Source: Hormiphora californensis
Lineage: Eukaryota; Animalia; Ctenophora
Length of the DNA: 64,000 nucleotides
Direction: 5' to 3'
Assembly (NCBI GenBank): GCA_020137815.1
Contig: CM035354.1
Coordinates: forward strand, 868,001-932,000
Made by a program: the position numbers and the translations under genes. Positions 2,360-62,188 of this stretch are shown here, piece after piece; position 1 is the stretch's first letter, and every line of letters starts with the position of its first letter. The notes beneath the pieces were generated by a model. That model had not been told where the DNA came from and did no database searches. It worked only from the letters and a program-made list of their open reading frames with translations.

Positions 2360-7497
<5,138 letters not shown>

Positions 7498-8022: not shown

Positions 8023-10749
<2,727 letters not shown>

Positions 10750-25423: not shown

Positions 25424-25908
25424 CACGGCGTGCCTGGTGAAATTTTAACACGACCTAGCATGCGACGGGAAACCACCACTTGTACGTGGTAGCTGAGGGT
25501 CTACAGAATGGCGCTACGGTGCGGGATAAATCATTCCATTCCCTAAAATCTTTTTTTTTACTTTTATTTGATTTGGGTCAAAATTGGCTATATTAAACGT
25601 GGTCCCGAAAAATCCATAATGACTTAGCACACGAAATATGTCACCCCTACCTATTTTTGCACGTAGAATCGATTGCCGTTGAAGTCGAATCTCTAAAATG
25701 ACTGCTAAGTCATTATGGATTTTTCGGGACCACGTTTAATATAGCTAATTTTGACCCAAATCAAATAAAAGTAAAAAAAAAGATTTTAGGGAATGGAATG
25801 ATTTATCCCGCACCGTAGCGCCATTCTGTAGACCCTCAGCTACCACGTACAAGTGGTGGTTTCCCGTCGCATGCTAGGTCGTGTTAAAATTTCACCAGGC
25901 ACGCCGTG
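25424..25908. mobile_element. MITE with CAC...GTG termini and 4-bp TSD (Chapaev-like)
   Basis: 206-bp inverted arms 25424-25629 and 25703-25908 with a 73-bp spacer. Begins CACGGCG, ends CGCCGTG, with GGAG on both flanks. Confidence 0.8.
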
Positions 25909-27432: not shown

Positions 27433-28311
27433 TCATAAAAATAGCTCATTCAGAAAATCGTTCATTTCATCCTCGGTGGATTTTACTAAAGTCTCTGGTG
27501 CTGGTCCCTTCCAAATGGAAACATCGCCCTCAATATCTTTAGAGGAGGACTCAGGCTGTTCTGAGGATGACGGAGTGACACTTGATTCTGAGGAAGAAGA
27601 GGACCGGTGTTTTGACTTCCGCTTTCGTTTCTTCTCCTTTCTTTTCTTTTTAGCCTTCTTCACCTTTTTGATAAGGTTCAGCTTTACAGAGCAATCAGGA
27701 CACAGCCGTAATTTGACAAGGGCGTTCTTTTTCACTTCGCCTTCCTTGTACCCAAAATTTACCTCCCAACTGGTCAGGTCTTCAGAGAGGGTGCAGTGTT
27801 TGTTTCCACATTCAAATTGCCCCTTCCCCGATTTCACCTCCTTCTCAACCCGCCACCGGAGTGCGATCTGCTTACTTTCATAGCGGGACAAATCCGCAAT
27901 ACAATATTCCTTAAACAGTTTATCATAATAATGTTTAGCAAGTCTTTCCTCCCAAGTCTTTGGGTCTCCCTGGTCCCATAAAAACTTGTGATTATCCCTC
28001 AGCACACTATAATCATTCCTATCACCCGTTGAATCACGTGCAAAATCCTCCACACTCCCACCATACAAGTTTACATAGTTCCTGATCAACTCCTTGTGTC
28101 GCGTGTAAGCGTCCATTTTCCTGAGGTGAAAGGCCCTAACTTTCCACGCTTCCTTATCGTGATAGGAAGTGAAACCTCCCAGCTGATCTCCGTTGGATTT
28201 GTATTGTCGAGGCATGTTACTGTTCATCTCGGGCTCGATAAGGGGCTTCTTGGGTGGTGGCTCCTCCAGATCGGAGTCATAGCCACCAAGGTCGAATTCT
28301 GGGTGAGACAT
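27433..28311 (-). CDS. FRA10AC1: FRA10AC1 homolog (spliceosome-associated), single coding exon
   Basis: 292-aa ORF with WEERLAKHYYDKLFKEYCIADLSRY, LRWRVEKEVKSGKGQFECGNKHC and SWEVNFGYKEGEVKKNALVKLRLCPDCSVKLN, which are diagnostic of the family. Confidence 0.93.
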   Translation of the reverse strand: MSHPEFDLGGYDSDLEEPPPKKPLIEPEMNSNMPRQYKSNGDQLGGFTSYHDKEAWKVRAFHLRKMDAYTRHKELIRNYVNLYGGSVEDFARDSTGDRNDYSVLRDNHKFLWDQGDPKTWEERLAKHYYDKLFKEYCIADLSRYESKQIALRWRVEKEVKSGKGQFECGNKHCTLSEDLTSWEVNFGYKEGEVKKNALVKLRLCPDCSVKLNLIKKVKKAKKKRKEKKRKRKSKHRSSSSSESSVTPSSSEQPESSSKDIEGDVSIWKGPAPETLVKSTEDEMNDFLNELFL

Positions 28312-29396
28312 GGCCTGAGAAAGGAGGATGACCTTTTAGTATCACAAGTACATTGTATCAAACTAAAATAACAAACAGTATAACACACGAGCATGTTATA
28401 GACACACAGACAAATCGAACAGCGTCTATTACACACAACTACACACTAGTTGGTAACTGATGAAATGTCTGAAAAACAGGGCAAATCAGTGGTTGTGCAG
28501 TGTGATTCAAGCTGGACTAAAACAGACCCAAGTGTTCGAATAATGGGGTATAAACAATGACAAAGTGATTAGACCAAAAACCACTTTTTTGGTGATGAAC
28601 AGGTTTTCTCCCAAGATCTCCCGATTCATCTTTCACTTTTTTCAAAATTAATTAGCTTGTCAGAGAATAAACCAATTTCTTGTTATGTTCTAACCCTCTT
28701 TTACATTTGTGAGCGTGTGAAGAGAGGGTCGAGCCATTAACCAATTTCTGCACACGAATGTCGAGTAGCACTACAAACTACATACTTATTGCTTAAGACA
28801 CGAAACCATTTCTCACCATAATTCTAATTAACTTTTCACGATTAACTTCCTTTTTTTTAATTCTTGAAATTGTTAATTAAACGTGGTTACGGGGTAAATT
28901 TTAATATGCTTTGTCTTTCAATTTTAAATCCACCCGGACAGGGAAAATTCATTTAATTGTGGAGATGTGTGGAAAATTATCGTTTTATCTTGAATTTTTC
29001 ATGTACAAAATCACATAACTGAAATCCTGTCACGGAGATCAGAGTGACTCGTGCACGTTTTTCGGGAACTTCCTCCGTGAACTTGATCAATTAAAAAGTC
29101 ATGGCGCCCTCTTGCTATGTAACCCTTCATTACCCAGTTTTCATTATGAAAGGTGCTTATCAGAATTCAGAACACATAACGAGGCTAAATAAGTACATTC
29201 CATATGCTCTTGTAAAGCTGTCTCAGGTTTCAGTATTCCCAATCACATGCACATTATAAACTTCTAAAGTTGAAGGCATGGATATACAATTAATATTCTT
29301 ACAAGAATTACAAGGATTATGATAACAAATATGATTGACAACTCAAGGTCCATTTGGTGTACCTCATAATTTCCTACTAATTAATTCGATAATAGG

Positions 29397-31343
29397 TATG
29401 CCTACGCGAAGAAAAAGAGGAAGGTCCAGTCAAACATTGGACCTCTACGGACCGTGAACGGGACCCTCACTGACGACCCTTTGGAGAAATCGGAGATCCT
29501 TCAAAGTCAGTATGTGAAAGTATTCAGTGATCCAGACGCAGTGGTTGTTGAGGAAGCGCTGGAGAAAATTGCAGAGAGGACGGAGAAGTTAGAAGATGTC
29601 ACCTTCACCCCTTCAACAATCGAGGAAGCGCTAAGTCAACTTAAACCAACTTCAGCAGCACCCCACGGTGATGTCCCAGCGCTGGTGCTACGGGAATGCC
29701 GTCGTCAGCTGGCATACCCCTTGTGGAAGCTGTGGGACCAATCATTTGCTAACGGATTTATACCAGAGGATCTGAAGAAGCAGCAAATAGCGCCTATCTA
29801 CAAGAAAGGTAACAAGACTCTCCCAGAAAGTTACCGGCCGGTAGCACTCACGAGCCATTTGACTAAGACCTTCGAAAGGATTGTAAGACAGCAGCTTACG
29901 GACTTTGTGGAGAGGACTGGGGTGCTGAACGAAGAGCAGCACGGGTTCAGAGCTGGGAGGAGTACACTAAGTCAACTTCTTAGCCACTACGATGGCATAC
30001 TAGAGGATATGAACTCCGGAGTTGAAGTTGATGTCGCGTACATAGACTACGCTAAGGCGTTTGACAAGGTGGATATCAAGATTCTCCTAGGTAAACTAAG
30101 GAAATATGGAGTAAGAGGAAAGCTACTAGAGTGGATTGAGGCTTTTTTGACTGGAAGAACCCAAAAGGTGGCTCTGGAAGGAAAGTTCTCAAGATCAGAA
30201 CCGGTCTTGAGTAGTGTGATTCAGGGGTCCGTGCTTGGGCCTCTTCTCTTCATCTTGTATATAGCCGATCTAGTGGAATGGACAAGCGGACACCCACTAA
30301 CGTTTGCAGATGATACAAAGAACCGTAGAGCTATTAAAGAGCTGGAAGACCAAGAAGCCCTTCAAAAGGACCTGGACGACATCGCAATCTGGTCGAGAAA
30401 CAACAACATGTTACTTCATGAAGACAAGTACGAAGTTATGAATTACAGATTGAACAATACAATATTCCTGCGGGCACTTCCCTTCAATGTCCAGTGCTAC
30501 CGATACAACAGCACATCGGGTGAAGCCATCGAGCCAGCCTACTGTGTTAAGGATCTGGGGATTTACATGACGGACGACGCCTCCTGGGAAACCCATATCA
30601 GCATCATTTCGAAGGAGGCTAAGCGCCTGGCCGGGTGGACTTTGGGAGTATTCAGAGACCGATCTGAAGGAACGATGCTGACACTGCTAAAGTCTTTGAT
30701 TAGGCCAAAGCTGGAGTACTGTTCCCCACTTTGGTCACCGTGTAAAATCAAAGATATTGCTCAACTGGAAACCGTACAGAGATTCTTCACTCGACGGGTG
30801 AAAGAATGTGAAGGTATGGACTATTGGGAAAGGATTAAGTATCTGAGGATTCTTTCTCTACAAAGAAGAAGAGAACGGTACATGATAATTCAGGTATGGA
30901 AGATACTTCACGAGATGGTACCAAACAGCACGAACATATCCTTCTACAATCACCTTCGTCATGGACCAAAGGCCCATCTCCCACAAATCCATCACACTGC
31001 TCAAAAATCAGTCCAGACTCTTCGAGAGGAATCCTTTGGGATACGAGCTATCCAACTCTTCAACAGGATGCCGACATCAGTTCGTCTATCTACATCTGTT
31101 GACAACCTAAAAGTCAATCTGGGCAGATTTCTCGACACCCTTCCCGACAGACCTCCGGTCACAGGATACCACACAACTGGGGACAACTCGCTCTTTAGTC
31201 TGCTGACGGAAGGCAAGTAACCTTCATTCCCACTTATCACAACACTTCACGTGGATGCTTAGGCTGAGTGCGTGGTATTATTTTGACTATTTATTGTGTA
31301 CAATACCAAAACTTATTTGTAATTCTTGTAATTCTTGTAATTC
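29397..31343 (+). mobile_element. 5'-truncated CR1-group LINE with uninterrupted reverse transcriptase domain
   Basis: Open frame from ~29397 (YAYAKKKRK...) to 31220 with YRPVALTS, QHGFR, DYAKAFDKV, QGSVLGPLLF, FADD and LEYCSPLW motifs. The 3' UTR ends in a (aattcttgt)n tail at ~31315-31343. Confidence 0.92.
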
Positions 31344-33761
31344 TACCTGCAGCTCTTGATTTTCAGGTAACCAAGGTTTCCAGGACACCCTAGATTTCAT
31401 TTTAACGTAACTTTGCCAAAACTTTCAATGAAATGCGGTTCTTTCTCTGCTTTCTTATTTATCAATCCTTAACATGTTAAACACAGAAAGTACTCTATTA
31501 AAGTCCAATTTTTCAACTGTTCACCCCCCCCCCCCCCCACCCAAAAGTCCTGTGCGGAAATGTTTTGCGTGTCTATCACATGTTAATGTGCTATAGCGAG
31601 CGCAGCGTAAATTTAAATATCACACGCCCACGAGTTGAGGCCTGAAGGCTGAACAGTTGAACAAAAATGGACTTTTGTTAGATGGAACTATTCAATAATT
31701 ATTTCGAAGGTCTGAAACTGTCTCAGATTGCCAAAATACCTTTCAAACCTCCATTTTCAGGCACTTTTTAGCCATCATTCACCGGTACGAAGGTTGGGGT
31801 TCAGCTACCTTGATTTCTCCTTGCTTTACTGGTTCTCTTTTCTTTCAGCTTCAAGATCAGAGTTCTAACGTGAAATGTTAAGTGTAGATATATCTGGCGT
31901 TTGAACCGTCAACCGACTGGCACAAGCTTCCAGGTTCCTGGAGTTTTGTCATAAACTTAAATGTCCTTTTTGAAAGGTTTCTCGAGTTTAATTTTGTTAT
32001 TTAACAATTTGTGTCAGGATGGGTTGTCGGTTGATCATGGGCCAGTTCCGGAAGGCAGGAGGACTGAGGCAAGTCTTCAAAAGGGTCCCAAATAATAATA
32101 ATAATAATAATAATTCATGACATTTAATATACCGCTTAATAGTGTTTAAAATAAATGGCTTGCTACTGATTCAATCAGATCGATGCTACACCATTTACCA
32201 CTTTCTAAAGCGGTCCAAGAAAGGGCCAGTGGTAAAGGAGAGCCAATAACATATTTTTAACGCTCAGTCAAGATAACATCAAAATACTATGTATTAGTAA
32301 GAGAATATGCTATGATGATTATTTATAAATTAAGTAAATAAATTAATTTGATTGATAGAATTCGATTAAAAAGAGTGCAATCATATTTATTAATTGAATA
32401 AGTAATAAAGACATAATATAATACTATTCATATTAAGAGAGATAAGTTAATTGTTATAGACTATTATTAAGTATAGGTGAGTAAGTGAATGTGTTGGTGA
32501 GTGATGGACATGTATGGGTAGTGGAGATGTGGGTGTTGGTATAGAACTGAGGTAAGTACGATTTAATGTATCATATAAAATATATAATCTGTATATATAA
32601 TAAAAAATACGTGCACATTGTTACAGAAACAGTATACAGAATCAATACATGAGTCATGCATAGAAACAGCATACAGTAGTAAACAGTTTACATGGAGAAC
32701 AGTTTACATGGATAACAGTGTACAAGAGTGATAAAAATATTAGTGATAGTAAAAAAAAACAGTTAATAATTAAAATTCAGATGTTCACTGACCCTGGTAG
32801 TGATCACTGTGTAAAATATCACCGATAATGAGAGACACTTAGCAATAAGCTTTCTTAAAGAGGTAAGTTTTAAGTTGCTGTTTAAACACATCGACAGATT
32901 CACTTTCTCGCAGGGTTTTCGGCAACTCATTCCACAATTTAGGTGCACTAATACTAAAGGCTCTACTAGTGGCTGTGTACTTGTGTGTGTATGGTTTGTG
33001 GAGGAGTGTGCTATCCTCGTCTGCCCTGACTACCTTGACCTTTGGCTTCCGGAGGGGGATGAGGTTGGAGATGTAGGGGGGAGCCATTCCATTGATGGAT
33101 TTGTATGTTAGTAAGCAGATTTTGAAGATGATTCTGCTTTTGATCGGAAGGAAGTGTAGGTCTTTCCGCATCTGGGTCACTCCTCTCCTCTTTCTTGTTC
33201 CATAGACGAACCGTACAGCACTGTTTTGGACCTTTTGGAGGCGGTTTAAATCAGATTCTGTGGCACCATAGAGTAGGGCATTTCCATAGTCTAGGCGAGA
33301 GTGTATTAACGAATGCACTAGCTTGATTTTCAGTTGCCTGGGAAGTTTTCTCGCTATCCTCCACAGATTCAGAAGTTGCATATTACATGCTTGGACAATT
33401 TTCGAGATATGGCTTGCCATTGAGAGGGTGGGATCAAGCCAAATACCGAGATTACGGGCACTTGTCGTTGATTCGATTTCCGTAGACTGTACAATTGGAC
33501 TTTCGTCTTTTTCAATCACTAATCCAGTTGGCCCAGGAGTGCGGTCGGCTTTGTGGTTGAGTATCAGAATTTCCGTTTTACTGGCATTTAGCTTGAGGTA
33601 GTTTTGCTTCATCCATTGCTTGATGTCACTGATACAATTTTGTAATTTATCCACAACACTTTTTCTGCATTCCACGGATAATTTTGAGCAAATCTTCATC
33701 AGTGACTGGCTGAAAGCATATTAGTTTGGGAGGTGATGTAGCACGGCTAGGGATATCAGGA

Positions 33762-34152
33762 GCAGGAGCAGGAGGGCTAGGGATAACAGGAACAGGAGGT
33801 CCAGGGAGAGCAGGAGCAGGAGGGCTAGGGAGAGCAGGAGCAGGAGGGCTGGGGAGAGCAGGAACAGGAGGGCCAGGAGCAGGGAGAGCAGGAGTAGGAG
33901 GGCCAGGGAGAGCAGGAACAGAAGGGCCAGGAACAGGGAGAGCAGGAGCAGGAGGGCTGGGGAGAGCGGGAACAGGAGGGCCAGGAACAGGGAGAGCAGG
34001 AGTAGGAGGGCCAGGGAGAGCAGGAACAGAAGGGCCAGCGAAAGCAGGAGGGCTAGGGAGAGCGGGAACAGGAGAATCAGGGAGAGCAGGAACAGGAGGG
34101 CCAGGGAGAGCAGGAACGGGAGGTCCAGGGAGAGCAGGAGCAGGAGGGCTAG
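33762..34152 (-). repeat. Coding minisatellite of 24/30-nt units giving (PALP[G/S]PP[A/V/T])n in the LINE endonuclease-RT linker
   Basis: Repeated gggagagcaggaacaggagggcca-like units, in frame within the 842-aa ORF. Confidence 0.9.
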
Positions 34153-36449
34153 AAGACGGTTGAGTTGTGACATATGGAAGCTTCTCAATATCATTGTAGA
34201 TCTTAGCCACTTTATTTCTGAAGAACTCGTTGAACTTGGTTACTAAAGCATCAGGAGAGTGTTGAGATGGCAGCTCTGTAGGTGTTTTTTCGATATCAAG
34301 CAACTTATTTACTATAGCAAATGTGGCTTTTCCATCTGTAGTCAGTTTGTCCAGGCGTGAGAAGTAGTATTGGGAACGAGTATTACAGATTAGAGTTGCT
34401 GCTTCTCTACTGGCGTTTTTCCATGCAGTAAACATTTTTGTTAGTCTTCCACGATCATTTGAGTTCAGGCGAGCTTTTAGCCACCGTCTTTCTGCTGCAC
34501 GTCTCTTTCTTTTTAGTTGTTGGCATTTTGGTGTCCACCATCTGTTGCGCTTCCTGTGCTTCATAATCATTTTCTCGATTGGAGCTAACTCATCTAGGAT
34601 ATCACGCAGAGTCTTATTGTATAGTCTCACGCAGTCCTCCAGTTCTTGAGGCAGATCTCCACAGAGGTCAGTCCCCAAAATAGCCTCAGCAAGGTCTTCT
34701 CTTTGAATGTCTTTTAGCTTTCTGGACTTGATTACTTTTGGCTCCGGCGGTGGCATAGTTATTGTGGCTTCAAGAGTGACTAAAAAGTGGTCAGGAACAT
34801 CTGGAACAGGTGACACTGAAACATTAGACAAGTCCAACGTTGTCTCGTGTGCGGTCTGGACAAGGACTAGGTCTAGAGTCCCGCCTTTGACATGTGTTTT
34901 CTCATTCACAATGTTTCTCCAGCCAAACTCACTAAGAAGTTTTTGGAACTTCCTTGTTTGTGGATGTTGAGCATCCTGGATGGGGATATTGAAGTCTCCA
35001 CAGATTATTGTGGCTTCTTGGTTCTCGTTTGCACATGAAAGGATCTGCTCGAACTCCTCAAGGAATAGAGAGAAACTCGAGCTGTTTCCTGGCCTATAGA
35101 TAACAACAATCCTTGTAGGTGAAAATGCTTTAAGAAGTACCTCCTGGTGTTCAAATGATGTAGCAACAACACGAGACTTAGCCTTGCCAATCTTAACACT
35201 CCGAAGTGTGATGACTCCAACTCCCCCACCGCGGCCATTCCTTGGAAGGTGCTGGATATCAAACCCAGCATCTTTAATATCAGCACACAGAGCTTTCTCT
35301 CCACTCTGCAGCCATGTTTCCGTAACTGCAAGAACATCCAGTCCACGATCAATCATAAGTTCAAGAATATCGACCGTTTTGTTTCTTAACGAGAAACAGT
35401 TCAGCAGTCCAATCTTTAGCCTCCGCAAAGGGGAACTTAGAAGTTTTTTGGGTTCTGGATTCGTTTCAGGTAGCTCGGGCAGTCTTTGGAAGCAGCGTTG
35501 TGTGGATGCACATGATTGGAAATGAGGGTCACTGGACTGTGAGCAATTGGCACAGCATTGGTTATTCCCATCCTTACTATCGCAGTCTCGACCAATGTGG
35601 GGGCCGGCACAGCGGTAGCATGTTGGGGTTTTCGCCGTACACTCAGAGGCGATGTGACCGAATTTTTGGCAAGTAAAACATTGGCGGACATGGAATCTCT
35701 CCTCTACCCTAGAGAAGGAGTTTCCCATGAACACAAAACCCTTAGTATGCATGTAGTTAAATAGCCTATAGGTAACACGAATTGCAATTGTAGCTAGGTC
35801 GTTATCACGAAAATGTCGCTTAAAGTGCACTATCTCAATTCTTTCGCCATCATCAATCATCTTTTTCACATCATTATTTTTCTCGCATAGCATCTCTATA
35901 ATATTGGCATCATTTCTCTGAATCATCTCTTTGTTCATTTTCTCAGTGCTCTCGATGGGGAAGGATGAAACATCGGCGTTTTTGATGGTCAGCTTCTTCG
36001 TTTTCACCTTTTCTTCCAATGTCACGTCGGGACTTGATACAGCAATACTGTCCTTGGCTTTCGTCATAGGCCATAGCCTCCTCCGAGTCAAATCCGATGA
36101 GAACAGATCCGTCACCTTTTCTTCCAATGTCACGTCGGGACTTGATACAGCAATACTGTCCTTGGCTTTCGTCATAACTCATAGCCTCCTCCGAGTCAAA
36201 TCCGATGAGAACAGATCCGTCATCTTTGTTCCTCAGAAACGTGGTTGGCACAGATTTTAAAAGTTTGTTAGCAGCAGAAAGTTGACCTGAATCGCCGGAT
36301 AGGGATAAATGAGCCTTGGTGACTGGTTTCTTGAGTTGTTCAGCATAGTTGACAGGTGGCATAGTTGAATTCATGTTGATACGAGCGGTTGGAGTGTCTT
36401 GAGCAGCAAATGACTTGCCAAATGTCAAAACGCGAAAGGGCGCGATTAT

Positions 36450-36708: not shown

Positions 36709-37296
36709 TGAGATTTTAACGTTTTCCAACGCGAAACGACGGTCGTCAGATTTTTTGCCAGAATGTGAATCTGAAGTCTGATATGAAATCGCGCGGCGCT
36801 AACCCGCTTTATTCTGCTTTGCATAAAACGTAAAACGCGTCAATAAGCTGTATCGCGCTGCATTCTGCCGCGCAGTAAGATTTAAATTTTAAGATTTTTC
36901 AAAAAGTTTTGCCCAAAATTTTGCCCAAAATTTCTTGTTTTGGTTGGTTTTTGGTTGTTGAAACTTTTTGATCAGCGATTTTGAAGCAAATTTCGGCAAT
37001 TTGGGGCAGTTTTAGAAGGCATTAACTGCCTAAAGTCAGATTTTTTGGAGTTGTCACCCCCCCTTTTCACGCGTGTCGTCGTATTTGCATTTTGCGTGTG
37101 ACAGCCCCCACTTCCTCTCACTTTTCGGCAAAAAGCCGCATATCACCGGAAAGTGTATAATTTTGTGAGTCCGCAAAGTTTTTGTTTGACAAAATTGGTC
37201 AAGAAACAAAGGCGTGAGAGCCAAAACTACGCATAGGCGGTCCGCCTAAGGCGGAGCACACACTCTTTACACCTCATAGTCTATGATAGACTGTCT

Positions 37297-38598
37297 GGCA
37301 GGTGAGTAGAACTTCGCTCCTAATAAAAGGCTGCAATAAAAGGCTGCAGAAAAAGGCTGCAGAAAAAGGCTGCAGAAAAAGGCTGCAATAAAAGGCTGCA
37401 GAAAAAGGCTGCAATAAAAGGCTGCAATAAAAGGCTGCAATAAAAGGCTGCAAGGTATCACGTATCCAACCAGACTAAAGCGGGGGATAGACCGAATCAT
37501 CCTCCCCTAATAGTGTTTCATATCACGTATCGGCTGTAAAGAGACCGAATCACCCTCCCCTAATTATAGTGATTCGTGTCACGTATCCAACTAGACCATA
37601 GGCGATAGAGAGACCGAGATAGAGAGCGAGTACGAGTGAGAACTGAGAGAGTGAAAAATCAGAATCACGGTATGGTATCACGTACCATGGTATCCTCTAA
37701 TGAAAAGTGGTTACCAATTGACAATGAGACCTCATCGGTCCCGATACGTGATTCTCTACCGCTATCCCACCGCTATGTATTCTCCGTTAGCCTTTCCGTA
37801 TCGATCCACGATTCATATAGAGGTAGTCAGTAACTACTGAGAGTGTTGGTCTAATGAGGTAGAAAACGGCCGAAATCTCGAGTTCGCTTTTCGTGATTTT
37901 AGCACTAGAGCCCGCTTACCGATCTATTGATTGAGCGTGTAGCACAATGAGTGCTACACGCACTCACAATATGACAGGTGAACCACCCAACCACTTGGTT
38001 CACCTATCATAGTTTCTACCTCATTAGACCAACACTTTCAGTAGTTACTGACTAATGGAGAATACATAGCGGTGGGATAGCGGTAGAGAATCACGTATCG
38101 GGACCGATGAGGTCTCATTGTCAATTGGTAACCACTTTTCATTAGAGGATACCATGGTACGTGATACCATACCGTGATTCTGATTTTTCACTCTCTCAGT
38201 TCTCACTCGTACTCGCTCTCTATCTCGGTCTCTCTATCGCCTATGGTCTAGTTGGATACGTGACACGAATCACTATAATTAGGGGAGGGTGATTCGGTCT
38301 CTTTACAGCCGATACGTGATACGAAACACTATTAGGGGAGGATGATTCGGTCTATTTACAGCCGATACGTGATATGAAACACTATTAGGGGAGGATGATT
38401 CGGTCTATCCCCCGCTTTAGTCTGGTTGGATACGTGATACCTTGCAGCCTTTTATTGCAGCCTTTTATTGCAGCCTTTTATTGCAGCCTTTTTCTGCAGC
38501 CTTTTATTGCAGCCTTTTTCTGCAGCCTTTTTCTGCAGCCTTTTTCTGCAGCCTTTTATTGCAGCCTTTTATTAGGAGCGAAGTTCTACTCACCTGCC
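37297..38598. mobile_element. Foldback non-autonomous DNA transposon with 8-bp TSD and GG...CC termini (Merlin-like)
   Basis: GGCAGGTGAGTAGAAC...GTTCTACTCACCTGCC flanked by GACTGTCT at 37289-37296 and 38599-38606. The long inverted arms contain a 13-bp (aaaaggctgca[at/ga]) array and ~54-bp subrepeats. Confidence 0.82.
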
Positions 38599-39015
38599 GA
38601 CTGTCTATCTATAGATGGTCTATCTTTCCCTCTCCTTCACGTGATTCAGTGCACTCAGGTCGGATTGGCACCGTCAGACATCTGGGAAGTGGGACCTGAA
38701 GGGCGAGGGCGGACTGTGGACTCCACAGTCCACACTGTCGAGGCCAGGGATCCCCGTTCATTTTTAGCAAAAATTCGGCTAAATATCTCGTCCCCATTCT
38801 TGGTATTAAAGAATTTGGCCTTTTTATACCCCCGGACCCCCCCACCCCCCTCTGGCCTTAATGCTTAAACTTATCTTGCTATTTTGTTGGTAGCCGGGAT
38901 CAAAGTTCGAACCGACAACCTGTTACCTCACATATATTTAAACATCCAAAAATCAAAGGTTTCCTGAAATGGCTTAAGAGATGACGCACTGAGAAAGAAG
39001 TATCAATAATTGATA

Positions 39016-42000
39016 ATGGTGGTAGGCAAAGCAGACGCCCAAGCTCGGCTCGTCCGGACATTCCATGAGTTTATTGAGCGAGGGGAAGTACTGGAATGCG
39101 AGCGGCTCCTTAAAAAGACACCAATTGACATCAATACGCCCTTGGTAAAAACTGAGCTACTTATAATTACCATAATCCTTATCCCGTAAATATGACTTGA
39201 AATATTAATTATTAACTGAGTTCCTTGTAAAACAGGTTTCAGATCAGTTAAATATTGATATCAAAACACTTTCAGGGGAAGGAAAAGTTTACAGCACTTC
39301 ACAAGGCCAGTTACTATGGACACCTAGATGCTGTCCACTGGCTGGTTTGGCACTGTGCCAATGTCAATGCCATCTCAGTCCAGGGCTGGACTGCTGCCCA
39401 CATTGCAGCTCTGAGGGGGAAAGAGCAGTGCATAGAGGCGCTCATCACTCATGGAGCAGACCTGACTACACAAGATGAAAGTGGGATGTGTCCTGTACAT
39501 TTAGCAGCTGCTCACGGTAACACATTTACACTCCAAACTATGGCCCGAAAAGGAGGGGATCTAACGTTGAGAGATATTAATGGCTGGAAGGCAATCCACC
39601 ACGCCGCTTACAATGGAAAGCTAGGTAAGAGCCAGGACAAGGGCCCCAATGAGTAAAGCCTAAAGTGCAATATAGCATGTTAGCGTTTTATATTATTTGT
39701 TGCTTCTGAGTCCCACGAATACACATTACAGACCCCTCCCCCTTGCCTTGCTCGACCCAGTTTCCCTGCACCCCGCATTTAACTAAGGAGGGTTAGAACA
39801 TAACAACCACCCACCCGTCCCCCTTGCCTTGCTCGACCCTGTTTCCCTGCACCCCGCAAGTAGTATAGTGTGCACAGTTGGGACCCCTTTTTCGCCCTAA
39901 CTGAGGCACCATTTTGTATGTGCATGTCACGTGACTTCTAATTACCAAAATTATGCGGCGCTGGCAAGAGTTGTTCACTAGAATATCGGGAGCGCCGGCA
40001 AGGACCATGGAATTTATTTTGGCGCTGACAAGGACCCACATTCGCGATTGGGATTTCTGTATGATGTCAATTTTTGTTTGGAATTTCTGTGTGATCTCAC
40101 CCCTATCACATTACACTCCTGCACAATGCATATAACTTTCTCTCTCTTTTCTCGTGCTGGTGTTCTGATACAAATAATAGAATACTCCAGAGTTCCCCCA
40201 ATATTCATCTAATGTTCTTTTGTTATTCTTATCGTTCTTTTGGTATTCCAGTGACTTTTCATTAGAAAGGAACGAGCCGGGAACGGTGAAAATTACAAAA
40301 GAACAGCATCGGAACGGTTTTTTGTTAGATAAGAAAAGTTGGAAAATACAAAAGAACAGTGGAAATTAGAACGGAACAACAGCGGAACGACGGCGGAACA
40401 GTAAAATGTTGCAAAATGTTTCATAAACGAAAACATGCAGTATATACACATAAACTAGGAAATGTATTTTTACACAGGTGTTCTAGAAATTATTTTGTCG
40501 TTACTTTATCATTTGTAGTGTTCTATTGTGTTCCGGTGACTTTTCATTAAAAAGGAACGAAATGGAAACAGTGAAAATTACAAAAGAACAACAACGGAAC
40601 ATATTGTGATTCAATGGAACAACACCGGAACAACACCAGAACAGTAAATAGCTAGTTTGGAACTATAAAAGAGATTGCTTATTGCGTTCAATTCATTTTT
40701 AGTCATGCCGAGATCTAATACGCGTCACGAGTCGTCTAAGAAAATGGGCTTAAGTGATATTTCAGATCCAGAGTCTGACTCAGATATATCTCAATCTGAT
40801 AGCGAATCTTCGGACCGAGAAAATACATACCAATGCTTGCTACACTGCTTTGCTTTCAAGCACGATCTTATTGACGCTGATATCAGCAAAGCTGATCTAA
40901 CAGATCGCGAGAAACTTCTTGTGGACGCCATTAAGGAATCAAACTCATTAATTGAAATTCGTGAAATGCTAAACCAGAACCCAGAAATGTTTGATAATAT
41001 TACGAACAAGCTGTTTCCGGAAACCTATGAAAATAAATGTCCTAACTGCAGTAACTAGTTTCTTTCGATGTCATGCCATGGGTATATAAGGGACAACTAT
41101 CTTCATTTCTTTACAAATGGTAGCTTGTGACTTGTGTGACCAATCGTTCCCCTTCATTTATCAACTCCTTGAACATAAAGACCTCTATCACAAAAAGCCT
41201 ACGATTAATGAAGGTATGGATACCAAAGAACTACAGATAGATGAGGATTATCCACTAGATGACACCTCTGCAGATGGCAGCGATAAAGATTCGGAAAACC
41301 CTTCACCAATACTTACTAAAGTTGTGAAAAAGCCTGAACTAAATTACAAGGAATTGTATCATGTGCGAGATCAGCACGCTCGCAAGTTTGAACGTTTGTA
41401 CAAAACAAAGCTGACGGAATCAAAACAACATTTGAGTCGCATTCGGTTATTTGAAAAGCAACTCGATGAGTTTATAACAAATTTTAAGGACAGTACCTTT
41501 AACGAGTTTTCCGATTCAATAATTAACTCCAAAAATATTGCTGACTTTCTAGAACTCAGTCGATTGTTTGCTTCAAAGAAATTTGTCAAGGTTTCACGTA
41601 GTAACCAACTTTTACAAGCTATTAAAACGTTGTGTACTGGTCTAAAGTATGGTGTAATTCCACTTGTTGTTTTTCAGCGAAAGAAATTAAATGAAAAAGA
41701 ACGAAAATTGATTAAATTAGTTGACAAAAAGAGCGTTGAAGATATCAAAAAATTATTTTTAAAGTATTCTAAAGAGTTTGCAAATATTTTCCAAGTTGTT
41801 GAAAAGACGCTGTTGCTTTTAAGAGATTTAGAAAATGAAAGTTTAAATGTATAGTTAATTATATTTCTTTTTTTTTTTGAAAAAAGGTCTTTTTATTTGT
41901 TTTACAAATCAAAAACAAAGTAGGTTTTATTGTTCCAGTGAATCAAAAATTTTGCAACAGTTTACAATATTTTACTGTTCCGCTGTCGTTCCGCTGTTGT

Positions 42001-45000
42001 TCCGTTCTAATATCCACTGTTCTTTTGTATTTTCCCACTTTTCCTTTCTAACGAAAAAACATTCCGTTGCTGTTCTTTTGTAGTTTTCACTGTTCCCGTC
42101 TCGTTCCTTTCTCATGAAAAGTCACCGGAATACCAAAAGAACGCTGGGAATAACAGTGCTATGACCCGTCGATAATTGAAGTAGAACATATCTTTGGCTA
42201 TATAAACCGGTGTTACCATAATTATGCATAATTGCTACCATAAGAATCATGGACGCGTTTCTAGATACTGTGCCCGTCAAGTTTTGGGAGTTGTACCGGA
42301 AAAATTGGTCAACTATTCGTCAGCGTACTACAAAAGGTAAACTAAAAGATATTTATCATTTTCCACTGTCACCCACTGATGGAATTTTTGGTAAACTAGA
42401 TAAAGTCTTGGAAAACTATCAGAATGATATAAAACTGAATGTCGCATTCGGATTTGTTATGACAAACAAACTTACTGGTGAAGTTAAATTTTATCACCCC
42501 TCTAATAACACAATGGTTTTTGAGACTGCTCAATTAATTTCTGGGCGAGAAGACGTTAAAAAAGTAAAAGAAAATATTGAACAGGAAGATCTGCTAGAAA
42601 TAGCAAGGAGTTCACGCCCATCTACAGCATGGAAAGTCGAAGCTGTGGTCTGCATTAGATTTGATATAATGAAGATTCAATTTTGATATAACTGATAGCA
42701 TTTTAATTATTCATTTATTTTTTTCTCCAGAAAACCAGTCTCTTAATTTGTTTTATAGACACAAAGTTGTTTTTGCAAATTTTGCAACATTTTTCAACAT
42801 TTTACTGTTCCGCCGTCGTTCCGCTGTTGTTCCGTTCTAATTTCCACTGTTCTTTTGTATTTTCCAACTTTTCCTATCTAACGAAAAAACGTTCCGTTGC
42901 TGTTCTTTTGTAATTTTCACCGTTCCCGTCTCGTTCCTTTCTAGCGAAAAGTCACTGGAATACCAAAAGAACGGTAAGAATAACAAAAGAACATTAGAGG
43001 AACGCTGGAGTATATTTATTATTTGTATCAGAACACCTGGCACGAGAAAAGAGAGAGAAAGTTATATGCATTGTGCAGGAGTGTAATGTGATAGGGGTGA
43101 GATCACACAGAAATTCCAAACAAAAATTGACATCATACAGAAATCCCAATCGCGAATGTGGGCCCTTGTCAGCGCCAAAATAAATTCCATGGTCCTTGCC
43201 GGCGCTCCCGATATTCTAGTGAACAACTCTTGCCAGCGCCGCATAATTTTGGTAATTAGAAGTCACGTGACATGCACATACAAAATGGTGCCTCGCTTAG
43301 GAGGCTAAAAGGGGTCCCAACTGTGCACACTATACTACTCCCGCAAATGTAAAGGAGGGTTAGAACATAACAACCCCCAGGATGCATGCAGACTCTGGTG
43401 AAATGGGGTGCTGACCTGGACTCCCTGACCCTGGTTACAGGAGACACAACACTTCACCTAGCAGCCTCAACAGGCCACCTTCACCTAGTGAAATATATCA
43501 TATCAACTGTAGAGGATTGGGTTTCTATGTTAGCTGGGATAAACAATGATGCTGAGACGGCACTGGAAAGGGCTGTTGTAACGGGCCAGGATGCTGTAGT
43601 GGATTACCTTTCCAATCTCAAGGTGGGTAAATTCACCAGCTGAACAACACGCAAAGTAGTACTTGAGTGCTATATGATTGTTGGTTTCTAATGAATATAC
43701 TATTGCCAGGTTAATGAGCTGAATGAGTTTGATGATGGTTTTCCCCTTCATGTTGCAGCCGCCAAGGGAGACATTCCCGCACTTGAACGAATGATAGGTA
43801 ATATCAAATGATAAGTATTTTAATTTGATAGAATTGTCAGTTCGTTGCTCCTTCTCTCGCTATTCTTCACATTCTACAAGTGGACCTGTAACTTTTTATT
43901 GACATTGTGGACAAATGAAAGTTCCTTCCTCTACCTTTGGTGATGACATCACCTATTACGCTTCGCAGGCTTCGTTTAGCCGCGCTGCGTGCGGCTAGTG
44001 TAGGGGTGACTGCGTCACCAACCTCTACCTCCAGGAGCGTCGTCTCTTTGTTACCCCACCCTTTTTATTACATTATTTGTTTCTACCAGGTAGCGGATTG
44101 TACTCGGTGAATGCTCGAGATGACCATCTCTCTACACCTGCACATAAAGCAGCAGGGCACGGGCAGGTTGAGACTCTCAAGTGGCTTATCCTTCACGGGG
44201 CTGACGGTTAGTGCTTCTTATTACACTATCATATATGACAAGAACTAAATAATATTGAACATATTGTAATACACAATATAGCTATAAACAGAGTTTCACT
44301 AACCACCCAACTATACTGCTATAGTTGTTAGCATCGTTTAACTAACATGATGAATACTAACCTAATACCTCTTCAGTTGACCTAGAAAATGGTTCGGGTG
44401 AGACAGTTAAGGATGTTGCTAAGAGGTTTGCCAAGGTGCAATGTGTTGAGGAACTAGGAGGATATACAGAGGATGAAGATGAAGAGGAAACTTCCCCTGA
44501 AGGTAATAATGTTTGGAATTTCACAACTTTCTGTGTTAGCTTTGCTACCGAAATTATGTAGCTATTATAGCAGTAACTTACTGTTATGATACCTACATAA
44601 ATTTAGCAGCAGGAAATTCAGGTTATTGAGTTATTCTGAGATGTAAATGTCAGCGGTCAAAGATCGATCTGTACTGTTCGTGGTCACTTGTTCTATTTTC
44701 GCATGCCTGTCCAATGTGATGTTGTAAGTGATATATCTCTAACCGATAGAGTTATTAGCTCGAGCATTAAACAAAGTTGAAGTCCTGGAGGATGAATTAA
44801 CTGATGCGAGGAGAGCAGTCGAGAAATTTGGAGGGAAACCGCCACCTGTCCCGCCAAGTGCCGACATAACTGCTGAAACCATGGTAAGTAGTCGGGATAT
44901 AATACCCAAAAACGGGATATGTGTTCTGTTTTTTTTGGGACATATATTGTGCTTTTTATTACTTTTTTGTTTGTTGTTGTTTGTCATGGCATCTGGCACA

Positions 45001-55437: not shown

Positions 55438-56383
55438 ACCACAAAAAAATTTGTTACAAAGGAATTCCACCTCAAATGTACTCCTAAGGGTCCCCTCTAT
55501 CGATTCCAACCAATGCTCATATTTGCTCAGGGGTGCTAAGGCCTCATTTCCGGGTGGGCGTGGTACCTGTATTTTCAGCCTGAGGCCAAAACCATAAGTA
55601 CCCTTAAAATAGGAGTAGAGATAAAATCGAGGGCACTAGAGTGATCAGCGTCCTCGCATTAGTGGGGGTAGGTGCCGGAATTAAGTCTCTATCTCAACTG
55701 GTTAATGAGATAATTGGATAATTAGGTTTGCGCACAACCGTTTTTTGGCTATATGGCTATAGCCACTTAGGAATGGTTTAGAGACTTATCATTGGTGCCA
55801 TTTTGTAGGCAAAACGAAGTTATGGGGGGTCGACGTCGGACTTTTAAGCTCTATCTTCAACCGTTTAGCCGTTATTTGGCTTTTAAGATTCTCCAAATGA
55901 GCAAAATACGGTAAAAACCCTGATTTTTAACACCGTTAAAGCCAAATAACGGCTAAACGGTTGAAGATAGAGCTTAAAAGTCCGACGTCGACCCCCCATA
56001 ACTTCGTTTTGCCTACAAAATGGCACCAATGAAAAGTCTCTAAACCATTCCTAAGTGGCTATAGCCATATAGCCAAAAAACGGTTATGCGCAAACCTAAT
56101 TATCCAATTATCTAATTAACCAGTTGAGATAGAGACTTAATTCCGGCACCTACCCCCACTAATGCGAGGACGCTGATCACTCTAGTGCCCTCGATTTTAT
56201 CTCTACTCCTATTTTAAGGGTACTTATGGTTTTGGCCTCAGGCTGAAAATACAGGTACCACGCCCACCCGGAAATGAGGCCTTAGCACCCCTGAGCAAAT
56301 ATGAGCATTGGTTGGAATCGATAGAGGGGACCCTTAGGAGTACATTTGAGGTGGAATTCCTTTGTAACAAATTTTTTTGTGGT
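55438..56383. mobile_element. Large near-perfect palindrome (foldback/MITE-like), termini unresolved
   Basis: Inverted arms ~55438-55884 and ~55936-56383 with few mismatches and a ~50-bp spacer. No TSD recognised, so it is probably truncated. Confidence 0.75.
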
Positions 56384-58544: not shown

Positions 58545-59954
58545 TATTAGCACCCACGTGAGATACGAAGTGGCAGTATACATAGCAATAGTTTCAGCAT
58601 CCAGCTTAAGTTATTTTGTAGGGTAATGGATGGAAAAATTAACCCGTCTTAATCTATTTATAATTCTCGCTATTTTTTTCTCCCTTTTCTTTTCTCTCTT
58701 TCTCTCTCCGCCATTGAATTAAACTACGACATCTTGCTAGAAGTAACTCCTGTAAGCGGAAAAACTTACAGTTCTAAAAGCGAGAGAGATGGGAGAGAAG
58801 GAGGGAGAGAGCGAGAGAGAGAGAGAGAAGAGAGAGGAGGGAGGAGCGAGAGAGAGAGATGGGAGAGAGAAGAGGGAAGGAGGGAGAGAGTGAGAGAGAT
58901 AGAAAGGAATAACGCTTAGGGAGCTGGAGTGGGTTCAATCTGTTATGAAGGAAACCGGAACAATTTATAACGACCTGAGCAAAACTGCAGTTTTCTCTGA
59001 TGCTCTTATTATCTTATCCATGAATGGCCATGGTATGGGGCCTTACCTCGAATAAAATGTTAGGATAAAAGTTTGAAAGGTTCACATTACAGAATGTCGT
59101 AGAGAATATGTTTTGTCGTCATAGAACAAAGCATCCAACTTGTATTGTTCAAGCCTGCAGCTCGCGAAAAGAGGGTCGAGCAAGGCAAGAATCCAACGCC
59201 AATGATAGGTCTTTAGGCTTTGTATAGCCTGGTTTGGTCGACAGAGTCCTTAGCTTTACTGGCAGACCGATCTTAGTTACCTTGATCAACCCTGTTTCAG
59301 GGTTTGGAGTTTGAAAAAATATTACCTTAATAGATTAGCTTACATTTGGTTGAATTTTTCATACTTTATTTTTGTTCTAAAAACAGTGTCAAGCGACTCA
59401 AAAAAACAGTGTCAAGCGACTCAAACATTTGGTTGATTCAAATCATGGTCTACAGTACGACGGTCGTGTTGGTCGGTTTGCTGCCGGCTATTGGACTACC
59501 GCGGTATCTTAGCAAAACTGGGGCGATCGTACCGATCGCAAATCGAGGGACCTGTTTCTATCTTTTTCTCTCTGACTGTCTCTCCCTTTTATGTATGTGA
59601 TGTGACCCCTCAAGTTCTCAAGCAGTTCTCAAGCACTTGTGATACGTGATACCTACGAATCACGTCGTCTAACTGACGGATCACGTCGTCACACTGACGG
59701 ATCACATCGTCACACTTATAGGGTGTCACATTTCCGTTCAGATTTGCATTAGATATAGTTAGATTAGATTGCACCTCGTGATGCAACTGTCAAGACCCAA
59801 CAGAACTCGGCTGGAATTAAACAGGAGTGAGTGGTGGGCATGTGTTCCGCAACTACAGCAGGGGCGGTGCACGGCTTTCAGTCAAGACAGCCAGTGTGAC
59901 CTCTCTTGCACATCCAGAGATCTCCCGAAGACGTCCCACACGGTGAACCTCGAC

Positions 59955-62188
59955 TAGATAAAGTTTTTTGGAGACCGGACCTAGGTTACGTATTTTTGAC
60001 CGAGGAATCCGAAAAACATAAAATTAAAATCGAAAACGTAGCGGTTTTTGTGTAAAACGGCAAAAACTGTCATTTTTCAGCGATTTTCGACTTTTTACGC
60101 TTTCTAGAGATTTTAAAAATATGTCCTTACAAGATATGATCTTGTGCTTCTAGACTAATAAAATACAATCGATTTGCTACAAATTGGTCCCGGGTTTGTG
60201 TGATTTGGTCAAAAGCTCTCTTTACTGTGGCCCATCAAAGATGGCCACTCTGCAAATACGTTTTTGACTCTTGTGGCCGCAGATGTAAACCAAAAGAAGA
60301 TTTATTATACACCAAAATTTGCGTCTTCTGAAGGCGAACAACCTGGTTTTTACGAAATTTGATTTCATGCAGGCGTTCAAAAATTACAGCCGAAAAACTG
60401 GTACAGTGGATTTCGGAAATACCCCTACTTCAACAAACCCTAATCCAGATAAGATTTCGAAAAATATACATCTTCATACATGAAAATGAAGCTCAGACAA
60501 ATGCCAACGTGATGCAAAAAACGGGAAGTGTGTAACTTATTTCGTTTAGAAGCTATAGCGAAAATAAAAGTGCTTGTATTTGCCTTGAAAACATCCTCTA
60601 AAAGCCCTGAAAAATAGCAAATCTGTCTAAAAATGCAATACGAATAAAATGTCACCTCCAGTGCACCAACTTAGCCCCCTGTGGACAGAATTTGTTTGAA
60701 ATTGTCAGAAATTGTCTGAAAGTATGGTTTTTAGAGGGTGTTTTCAAGGCAAATACAAGCACTTTTATTTTCGCTATAGCTTCTAAACGAAATAAGTTAC
60801 ACACTTCCCGTTTTTTGCATCACGCTGGCATTTGTCTGAGCTTCATTTTCATGTATGAAGATGTATATTTTTCGAAATCTTATCTGGATTAGGGTTTGTT
60901 GAAGTAGGGGTATTTCCGAAATCCACTGTACCAGTTTTTCGGCTGCATGAAATCAAATTTCGTAAAAACCAGGTTGTTCGCCTTCAGAAGACGCAAATTT
61001 TGGTGTATAATAAATCTTCTTTTGGTTTACATCTGCGGCCACAGGAGCCAAAAACGTATTTGCAGAGTGGCCATCTTTGATGGGCCACAGTAAAGAGAGC
61101 TTTTGACCAAATCACACAAACCCGGGACCAATTTGTAGCAAATCGATTGTATTTTATTAGTCTAGAAGCACAAGATCATATCTTGTAAGGAAATATTTTT
61201 AAAATCCATATAATAAATTCCAAAATGTTAGTCCGATAATTGTTTTCTCCCTACTCCTCCTACAGTTTTTGAGCTAGACCCCTGAAAATTTGTACACTGG
61301 TACTTTGGACCAAGGCGGGTGTAAGTACGGGCTCAGATTTTTGATCCGATCTTTACAACAGTGACGTCACGGGGTGACGTCATTGCGACAAAAAGACTTA
61401 CATTTTTCAAACGCTTCATTTTACATGATAGCGATTTCCCGTAACTCAATGTTTAAGGGTCGTAAATCGCGTCGGGAAAGTTAAAAATGCCAAAAATACG
61501 ATATTTTTCACCGTAGCCACCCAAAATCTTATCCAATCGATATGAAACTTGGTCGTTATGTGAATTTTAATGTCCTTTGGCCAGGGGTTCCCGGAAAACG
61601 GATTGGCAAGATGAGAACTGACCGGAGTTCTTATAATTCTAAATTCACGAATTTGGAATTTTTCGTCGACTTTTTTTTGGCGAGGAAATTTTCAATACAA
61701 TGAATTTTAAAATTTTACACTGTAGTGGAAGCTCTTACGGTATTTCCCACGCCCCGTGGGAAAGTTTTTGACCGTGGGAAAGTTTTCAAACCGTGGGAAA
61801 AGAGAGATACATACAATAACCTTTAAAAAATAATTATTTTTTGTATGTTACTGTATGTATCTCTCTTTTCCCACGCTTTGAAAACATTCCCACGGTCAAA
61901 AACTTTCCCACGGGGCGTGGGAAATACCGTAAGAGCTTCCACTACTGCGTAATTCTAGGTTCCGCGCGCGGCGTAAAAAAGCAGCGCTTTTTCGGGAAAA
62001 TTCGCGTGTTACAGTAAATGATTTACCCGCCTCGCCAAAATTGTAACGCGCTCCTACTATGAGACTCATTGCTCTAAGGAACAAACAAATTAATTTATCT
62101 TTTAAAAATCAAACACAAATGTCACCAGTTATATGAGGATAAATTACCATTTACCAGGTCACGGGTTCCCAGCAAACGGGTACTCTAG
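59955..62188. mobile_element. Composite non-coding repeat region with two nested palindromes; outer boundaries uncertain
   Basis: Inverted arms ~60109-60605 and ~60726-61206 (17-bp deletion in the right arm); second palindrome ~61722-61820 and ~61847-61946; CTAG-type ends near 59954 and 62185. Confidence 0.6.

What the first reader, a model, noticed from the sequence alone, without database searches (positions are those of the whole stretch)
39859..43339. Miniature Polinton carrying a stand-alone terminal-protein-like gene: candidate helper-dependent satellite
Seen: AGT-repeat termini, a 6-bp TSD (CCCGCA), ~560-bp TIRs, a length of only 3.48 kb and three uninterrupted co-oriented ORFs. Established: Polintons have these termini and TSDs, are usually 15-20 kb, and encode integrase, pPolB, ATPase, protease and capsids; none of those is present here. 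Inference: ORF C resembles the N-terminal pPolB region proposed to be the terminal (priming) protein, but it has its own start, stop and TATA box rather than being a broken polB stub. This suggests a streamlined element that supplies its own primer protein and borrows polymerase, integrase and possibly capsid from an autonomous Polinton.
Basis: partly seen in the sequence, partly recalled or inferred. Interest (0 to 1): 0.9.

Follow-up and report, generated by a model that had tools for sequence, protein, structure and literature searches.

The report
Mini-Polinton keeping a free terminal protein
This 3.5-kb insertion has the ends of a virus-like Polinton transposon but none of its enzymes or capsids, and it keeps a conserved free-standing copy of the protein domain predicted to prime Polinton DNA replication, so it likely spreads as a multi-copy hitch-hiker on a full-size helper that was not found here.

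Summary
In detail: 3,481 bp, AGTAGT ends, CCCGCA duplication, 568/560-bp inverted repeats, three open ORFs with TATA boxes, inside an ankyrin-gene intron. ORF C is homologous to the N-terminal terminal-protein (TP) domain of Polinton polymerases by sequence and predicted fold, and keeps Ser/Thr in the predicted linking loop. It is not a polymerase stub but belongs to a separate clade of ~145-aa free TP genes. ORF B ends in a domain predicted to resemble the adintovirus protein GasderminX. The whole element is covered far above flank depth in two organisms, 13 of 19 displayed coding variants are synonymous, and ORFs A and B recur at ~90% identity in Pleurobrachia bachei, so the host is likely a comb jelly. 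It is best read as a selected non-autonomous Polinton family that likely supplies its own primer. No helper, second target duplication, expression or priming was shown. The scan noted other mini-Mavericks on other DNA, with different genes.

The parts
39853..39858 (.). left copy of 6-bp target-site duplication CCCGCA
39859..40426 (+). left terminal inverted repeat, 568 bp, starts (AGT)2; inner part carries short GGAAC-core repeats
40517..40648 (+). degenerate partial copy of the inner TIR upstream of ORF A
   Evidence: 74-87% identity
40705..41058 (+). ORF A, 117 aa: acidic Ser-rich N-terminus plus a short domain, possibly a paralogue of the ORF B C-terminal domain; TATA box at 40664
   Evidence: 92% identical copies in P0222; 2 of 500 shuffles reach its score on the ORF B profile, hhalign E 0.15
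41117..41854 (+). ORF B, 245 aa: C2H2-like finger, disordered linker, predicted coiled coil, predicted GasderminX-like helical domain; TATA box at 41083
41947..42155 (+). 209-bp internal copy of the inner right TIR (92%); with 42777-42985 it brackets ORF C as a direct repeat
42249..42686 (+). ORF C, 145 aa: stand-alone terminal-protein-fold protein homologous to pPolB domain D1; candidate linking residue T126 or S125; TATA box at 42199
42780..43339 (-). right terminal inverted repeat, 560 bp, ends (ACT)2
43340..43345 (.). right copy of target-site duplication CCCGCA
39625..43380 (+). host GT-AG intron of an ankyrin-repeat gene that contains the element (269 nt without it)

Best explanation
This is a multi-copy, non-autonomous miniature Polinton that keeps intact ends and three conserved genes, and that likely replicates by supplying its own predicted primer protein (ORF C) to the polymerase of a still unidentified full-size Polinton, whose integrase would then insert it. 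Shown: Polinton-type ends and 6-bp duplication, no core enzyme or capsid gene, ORF C homology to the pPolB TP domain with the loop hydroxyl kept, and an excess of synonymous variants. Inferred: a fused TP is spent once per polymerase, because it is predicted to stay on the 5' end and be cut off by vOTU. A free TP would let helper polymerase start extra rounds on ends that the helper recognises. That would explain why full-size elements carry a second, free copy and why a minimal parasite keeps it. ORF B and ORF A likely act as accessory or core-type proteins (GasderminX-like domain), perhaps for packaging; this step is weak.
For: Ends match the 5'-(AGT)2//(ACT)2-3' motif and 6-bp TSD of Mavericks (PMC8097293 passage). 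ORF C hits 750 proteins at E<=0.001; 6 of 18 long hits scanned carry DNA_pol_B_2 downstream of the match, 5 above the cut-off. Model pLDDT 90.5. The top viral fold hits are adintovirus, densovirus and MELD-virus proteins, several annotated as polymerases (best E 6.7e-4). 10 of the top 50 solved chains are Y-family polymerases aligned over the little finger (4ir1 Z 5.0, rmsd 3.3, 88 residues), the fold given for TPs in PMC11161782. The column of T126, in the loop before the last strand, is Ser/Thr in 41 of 45 stand-alone-clade rows and 68 of 68 extended rows. dN/dS is 0.03-0.18 for five pairs of related TP genes. 13 of 19 displayed coding variants are synonymous against 20% expected (p 8e-6; ORF C 4 of 4). 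Long single contigs over A, B and C in organism B have depth 321-532 against 16-66 in flank bins. One organism-B contig runs 30 nt past the terminus into a different flank.
Against: No helper was found: no genome is held, the window has none, and viral and prokaryote collections gave nothing. Only one TSD was read. The free TP gene occurs inside full-size Polintons, once just after polB near a contig end (L006) and once on a contig with a fused TP (L010), so it may be an accessory gene with another job, and the selection seen may partly be inherited. The residue is Thr or Ser, whereas the paper names Ser or Tyr in D1 domains, and ORF C lacks the C-terminal helical extension of PRD1 and adenovirus free TPs. 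Fold Z-scores of 5 are individually weak. The variant table showed 40 of 343 rows, chosen by support. The zinc-finger ORF of L004/L005 has dN/dS 0.74. The Pleurobrachia gene model has A and B in tandem without C. Depth is not a copy number by the tool's own warning.
Confidence: 0.55

Rival explanations
1. It is an ordinary internal-deletion derivative of an autonomous Polinton. A, B and C are end-proximal accessory genes that came along, the element moves only through its TIRs, and the conservation is inherited from the parent.
For: The free TP is a regular gene of full-size elements and follows polB near the contig end in L006, in the same 24-row subclade as ORF C (SH 94). The contexts of the closest homologues (P0001-P0008) could not be read. 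Polintons lacking polB are reported in insects (bioRxiv 10.1101/2025.02.07.637071 passage).
Against: Depth is even across A, B and C in organism B, and the whole element is covered in both organisms. Displayed variants among copies are mostly synonymous, and the one indel shown inside an ORF is in frame. An ORF B and an ORF C homologue both come from contigs of 3,253 bp, and another pair from contigs of 1,667 bp (linkage inferred from equal lengths). L003-L005 repeat the layout repeats / A- or B-like ORF / TP at ~43% TP identity.
Confidence: 0.25
2. It is a true helper-dependent family, but ORF C does not prime. It likely binds DNA ends through its little-finger fold or competes for the helper polymerase as a decoy or regulator.
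For: The free clade coexists with a fused TP on L010. It has its own conserved residues (H83-P84-S85-N86-N87, C135-x-R137-x-D139) where fused domains differ in part. The fold is a DNA-binding little finger (PMC11161782).
Against: The R-P-x-[ST]-x-W loop is kept as strictly as in fused domains, which is expected if the hydroxyl is used.
Confidence: 0.15
3. The host keeps the element as a defence cassette whose products interfere with incoming Polintons.
For: Purifying selection and tandem amplification of A and B in a Pleurobrachia gene model.
Against: Intact TIRs 94% alike, a perfect TSD, a different flank in another organism and many sequence variants point to a mobile family rather than one fixed locus.
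Confidence: 0.05

Closest known systems
Polintons/Mavericks (adintoviruses) of animals
   Same: (AGT)2//(ACT)2 ends, long TIRs and a 6-bp TSD (PMC8097293); TP-domain homologue; predicted GasderminX-like domain (PMC8502044).
   Different: 3.5 kb against a typical 15-25 kb (PMC6431247 passage); no pPolB palm, integrase, ATPase, protease or capsid gene.
Stylophora pistillata polinton with a separate TP gene (Krupovic et al. 2024, PMC11161782)
   Same: TP encoded as its own gene.
   Different: That element keeps vOTU-pPolB; there the TP is split off, whereas L010 here shows a free copy beside a fused one. Whether its TP falls in the ORF C clade was not testable (figure S8 not readable).
Terminal proteins of PRD1 and adenoviruses
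   Same: Stand-alone gene, same predicted fold, hydroxyl in the loop before the last strand.
   Different: ORF C is only 145 aa with no C-terminal helical extension or adenovirus insertion; no direct structural comparison with those TPs was run.
Transpovirons and helper-dependent linear plasmids (zymocin killer plasmid with helper plasmid)
   Same: Small linear-type elements related to Polintons that depend on a larger partner (PMC11161782 passages; search listing).
   Different: Transpovirons encode pPolB-S1H; this element has no polymerase domain and is integrated with a TSD.
Non-autonomous Polinton derivatives
   Same: Polinton ends without replication genes.
   Different: The retained gene set: here a free TP plus zinc-finger/GasderminX-like genes, not ATPase plus one accessory gene and not LINE or LTR cargo.

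Membership tests
Polinton/Maverick (autonomous) | (AGT)2 or (AG)3 terminal motif and long TIRs | tested here: met
Polinton/Maverick (autonomous) | 6-bp target-site duplication | tested here: met
   CCCGCA on both sides; joint skipping element plus one copy
Polinton/Maverick (autonomous) | protein-primed family B polymerase | tested here: not met
   five pPolB queries hit only ORF C inside the element; interior is 2.35 kb
Polinton/Maverick (autonomous) | retroviral-like integrase, ATPase, protease, capsid genes | tested here: not met
   only three interior ORFs of 117-245 aa, none with such a Pfam or fold match
Non-autonomous Polinton family | multiple copies with the same structure | tested here: inconclusive
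   whole-length cover far above flank depth and many variants in two organisms; no contig spans a copy, so equal size is not shown
Non-autonomous Polinton family | independent insertions with different TSDs | tested here: inconclusive
   a different flank on organism-B contigs; no second TSD pair read
Non-autonomous Polinton family | autonomous partner with matching ends | not testable with these tools
   no genome held; none in the window
PRD1-like terminal protein / pPolB D1 | sequence homology to the domain upstream of vOTU in pPolB | tested here: met
   (45 of 178 rows show a vOTU-like motif just downstream)
PRD1-like terminal protein / pPolB D1 | little-finger-like alpha/beta fold | tested here: met
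   predicted model; 10 Y-family chains in the top 50, Z up to 5.0, each weak alone; viral fold hit E 6.7e-4
PRD1-like terminal protein / pPolB D1 | hydroxyl residue near Pro/Gly in the loop before the last strand | tested here: met
   P124-S125-T126; Ser/Thr at column 126 in 41 of 45 clade rows; the paper names Ser or Tyr for D1
PRD1-like terminal protein / pPolB D1 | covalent link to the 5' nucleotide and priming | not testable with these tools
   needs biochemistry
GasderminX (adintovirus accessory protein), for ORF B | structural or sequence homology over the ~110-aa domain | tested here: inconclusive
   Foldseek top hit E 6.1e-3, probability 1.00, TMt 0.73, rmsd 2.8; sequence tests against the 107-aa gene after the ATPase in L009/L012 not significant (E 0.31 and 0.052; 23 and 28 of 500 shuffles)
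Satellite virus of a Polinton | packaging in helper capsids or interference with the helper | not testable with these tools
   no particle or infection data

The most novel reading that the evidence does not exclude
A polymerase-less satellite of Polintons whose one replication gene is a free primer protein. It re-primes helper polymerase in trans, uses a GasderminX-like protein to enter helper particles, and belongs to a wider marine group of such satellites (L001-L005). These draw on an unreported clade of second, free TP genes carried by full-size Polintons.
Probability: 0.35. Interest if true: 0.85.

Novelty: new variant of a known kind. Interest (0 to 1): 0.68.

Why it matters
That the pPolB N-terminal domain primes Polinton replication is a structural prediction (PMC11161782), and how it is removed before integration is stated there to be unclear. 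A natural 145-aa free version, conserved across many lineages and kept by a 3.5-kb element that has lost everything else, is a small, tractable test case for that prediction. It also suggests that Polintons have their own parasites and that many full-size elements carry a second TP gene, which bears on how adenoviruses came to have a separate TP.

Tried and rejected
No whole genome is held, so copy counts, further TSDs and a helper could not be searched. Pfam gave nothing above cut-off for A, B or C. The ESM Atlas first hit for ORF C (patatin-like cluster, 0.91, 101 shared features) was rejected as chance; ORF B 70-245 matched unnamed eukaryotic clusters at 0.93-0.96. Foldseek against PDB had no hit at E<=0.001 for ORF C. 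VIA top hits for ORF B were generic helical matches, Z<=7. Viral-contig scans with ORF C, ORF B, the 107-aa Polinton gene and the terminal 23-mer, and genome-contig scans with ORF C and ORF B, found nothing. No RNA holder was listed, which says nothing on expression. The 'broken polB stub' idea was rejected. Thirteen short proteins outside the clade look by their C-termini like cut pPolB N-termini. The careful tree did not finish; the quick tree is cited. Kapitonov and Jurka 2006 is not held; that it lists non-autonomous Polintons is recalled, not read. Literature searches showed no paper on a TP-only mini-Polinton in their listings. Most subscription papers and Repbase are not covered, and figure S8 of PMC11161782 could not be seen. 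Look-ups in the scan's notes by sequence and place were empty.
Full report
OBSERVATION. The element spans 39859-43339. It starts AGTAGT, ends ACTACT and is flanked by CCCGCA on both sides. The TIRs are 568 and 560 bp, 94% identical, with a perfect terminal 33 nt. These ends fit the 5'-(AGT)2//(ACT)2-3' motif and 6-bp TSD of Mavericks (PMC8097293, passages read). Three co-oriented ORFs of 117, 245 and 145 aa fill the interior, each with a TATA-like box 34-50 nt upstream. The element is 36% GC against 43% for the window. It sits in a GT-AG intron of an ankyrin-repeat gene whose exons join in frame, within an 81-bp tandem repeat that has one CCCGCA per unit. Contigs of 3 of 4 runs show a joint that skips the element plus one CCCGCA; they derive from a high-copy repeat family.

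ORF C IS A TP-DOMAIN HOMOLOGUE. A word-indexed search gave 14 hits among 34 candidates, 13 of them complete 143-150 aa proteins at 46-91% identity. A search among longer proteins gave one hit of 7,998 scored, a polymerase-type N-terminus (E 1.3e-9). phmmer over 1.84 billion representatives gave 750 hits at E<=0.001, with the best 150 listed. Of 18 long hits scanned, 6 carry DNA_pol_B_2 behind the match. Of 178 rows classed by script, 45 show a vOTU-like motif just downstream. This is the TP(D1)-vOTU-polymerase order of Krupovic et al. 2024 (PMC11161782; passages, sections 6 and 10 and supplement text passages read). The model has pLDDT 90.5. Its best viral match is an adintovirus protein (E 6.7e-4), followed by densovirus and MELD-virus proteins. 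Ten of the top 50 solved chains are Y-family polymerases aligned over the little finger, including 4IR1 (Z 5.0, rmsd 3.3, 88 residues), though the top row is an ATP-grasp protein and all Z are under 8. The paper places the linking residue between alpha2 and the last strand near Pro or Gly. ORF C has R123-P124-S125-T126 there. Column 126 is Ser/Thr in 41 of 45 clade rows and 68 of 68 extended rows.

IT IS AN OLD FREE GENE, ALSO IN FULL-SIZE POLINTONS. A quick IQ-TREE of 99 selected rows splits 39 stand-alone from 60 fused domains (SH-aLRT 98). The stand-alone rows there were picked with a motif filter, and the careful search did not finish. Without the filter (154 rows), ORF C falls in a group of 45, of which 44 are short proteins (FastTree 0.96); 13 other short proteins lie outside and look like cut polymerase N-termini. 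L006 has the gene directly after a pPolB. L007 has it beside an adenovirus-type protease. L009 has it upstream of an rve integrase and an ATPase, L012 has the same layout, and L008 and L010 are 95-98% identical to that family. L011, L013 and L014 share its neighbours by eye. L010 also holds a polymerase with a fused TP and vOTU. L001-L005 show no core gene: there the TP follows tandem repeats, in L004/L005 with a zinc-finger ORF weakly like ORF B (E 3e-4, probability 40%), in L003 after an ORF end like ORF A (0 of 1,000 shuffles). Those contigs are 1-3 kb, so they may be minis or ends of large elements. dN/dS for five TP pairs is 0.03-0.18.

ORFs A AND B. ORF B has 21 hits among 573 candidates at 44-92%. 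Identity is high in the finger, coil and helical domain and collapses in the linker (for P0059: 13/27, 30/44 and 73/121 against 4/43). The model (pLDDT 73.8) matches best GasderminX of Terrapene adintovirus (E 6.1e-3, probability 1.00, TMt 0.73), described as a Beta-class virion accessory gene (PMC8502044, passages). Sequence tests against the 107-aa gene after the ATPase in L009/L012 were in register but not significant, so this is a lead. ORF A may share the domain (2 of 500 shuffles). A Pleurobrachia bachei gene model holds three copies of A (92%) and five of B (89-91%) in tandem, without C. The host is therefore likely a comb jelly.

COPY NUMBER AND SELECTION. Twenty listed runs hold part of the element, six of them half or more of its words; these six are all organism A, and organism B holds 0.11-0.13. 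Laid contigs cover the whole element in three organism-A runs and one organism-B run. In organism B, long single contigs over A, B and C have depth 321-532 against 16-66 in unique-flank bins; in one organism-A run a contig in ORF B has 3,509 against about 110-290. The tool warns that depth is no copy number, and X4 may be the window's own source. One organism-B contig runs 30 nt beyond the terminus into a different flank. Of 343 variant rows, 40 were shown and 19 lie in ORFs; 13 are synonymous against 20% expected (p 8e-6), 4 of 4 in ORF C. Of 85 indel rows, 12 were shown; the one inside an ORF is a 9-nt in-frame insertion.

MECHANISM. Shown: Polinton ends, integrase-type TSD, absence of core genes, TP homology, conservation. 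Inferred: integration must come from a helper's retroviral-like integrase, and replication from its pPolB. A fused TP is predicted to be cut off and left on the 5' end (PMC11161782), so each polymerase would prime once. A free TP would allow re-priming, which would benefit a full-size element and even more a parasite. I put 0.9 on a non-autonomous mobile family, and 0.55 on the full reading in which ORF C primes. Rivals are a passive deletion derivative (0.25), a non-priming end-binding or decoy role (0.15) and host defence (0.05). No helper, second TSD, expression or docking prediction was obtained.

NOVELTY. A separate TP gene in a Polinton is in print for one coral element, and polB-less Polintons with transposon cargo for insects (bioRxiv 10.1101/2025.02.07.637071, passages). 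The Anolis survey notes an apparent absence of non-autonomous copies there (PMC3014272, passages). Nine literature searches listed no TP-only miniature or free second TP clade, within a library that lacks most subscription papers. The scan's notes list four other small Maverick derivatives in other genomes with different gene sets (unchecked). Verdict: a new variant of a known kind, interest 0.68.

Noticed in passing
window 39732-39858 and 43346-43381: The element landed in the second unit of an 81-bp tandem of a very high-copy short repeat (summed depth near 43357 of several hundred thousand in two runs). The repeat's end supplies the 3' splice site of the host intron; partial copies lie at 7249-7277, 28680-28709 and 59172-59189.
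   Followed up: partly
P0222 (Pleurobrachia bachei gene model): Tandem A-B-B-A-B-A-B-B array, A 92% and B 89-91% identical to this element, with no ORF C in the model; either cassette amplification or an assembly or gene-model artefact.
   Followed up: partly
window 41947-42155 and 42777-42985: ORF C is bracketed by 209-bp direct repeats, so unequal crossover could add or drop the TP cassette.
   Followed up: no
L010 99-3400 (-) and 6871-7341 (+): One 8-kb contig holds a TP-vOTU-fused polymerase (decayed in its 3' part) and a free TP paralogue.
   Followed up: partly
L009 2376-2765; L012 1177-1584: A conserved ~130-aa ORF follows the free TP gene in full-size elements; by eye it recalls Bcl-2-like helical proteins (recalled, no Pfam support).
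   Followed up: no
window 3826-5111, 25424-25908, 37280-38615, 55438-56383, 60109-61206: Five unrelated palindromic or fold-back elements, probably MITE-like.
   Followed up: no
window 27433-28335 (-), 8023-9417 (-), 29385-31220 (+), 33647-36178 (-): Intronless FRA10AC1 ORF, an M13 peptidase in long ORFs, and two LINE-type RT/endonuclease ORFs.
   Followed up: no
P0080, P0122, P0140: The TP domain also occurs behind long C2H2 zinc-finger arrays; in P0080 it ends the protein. These may be long pPolB N-termini or host captures.
   Followed up: no
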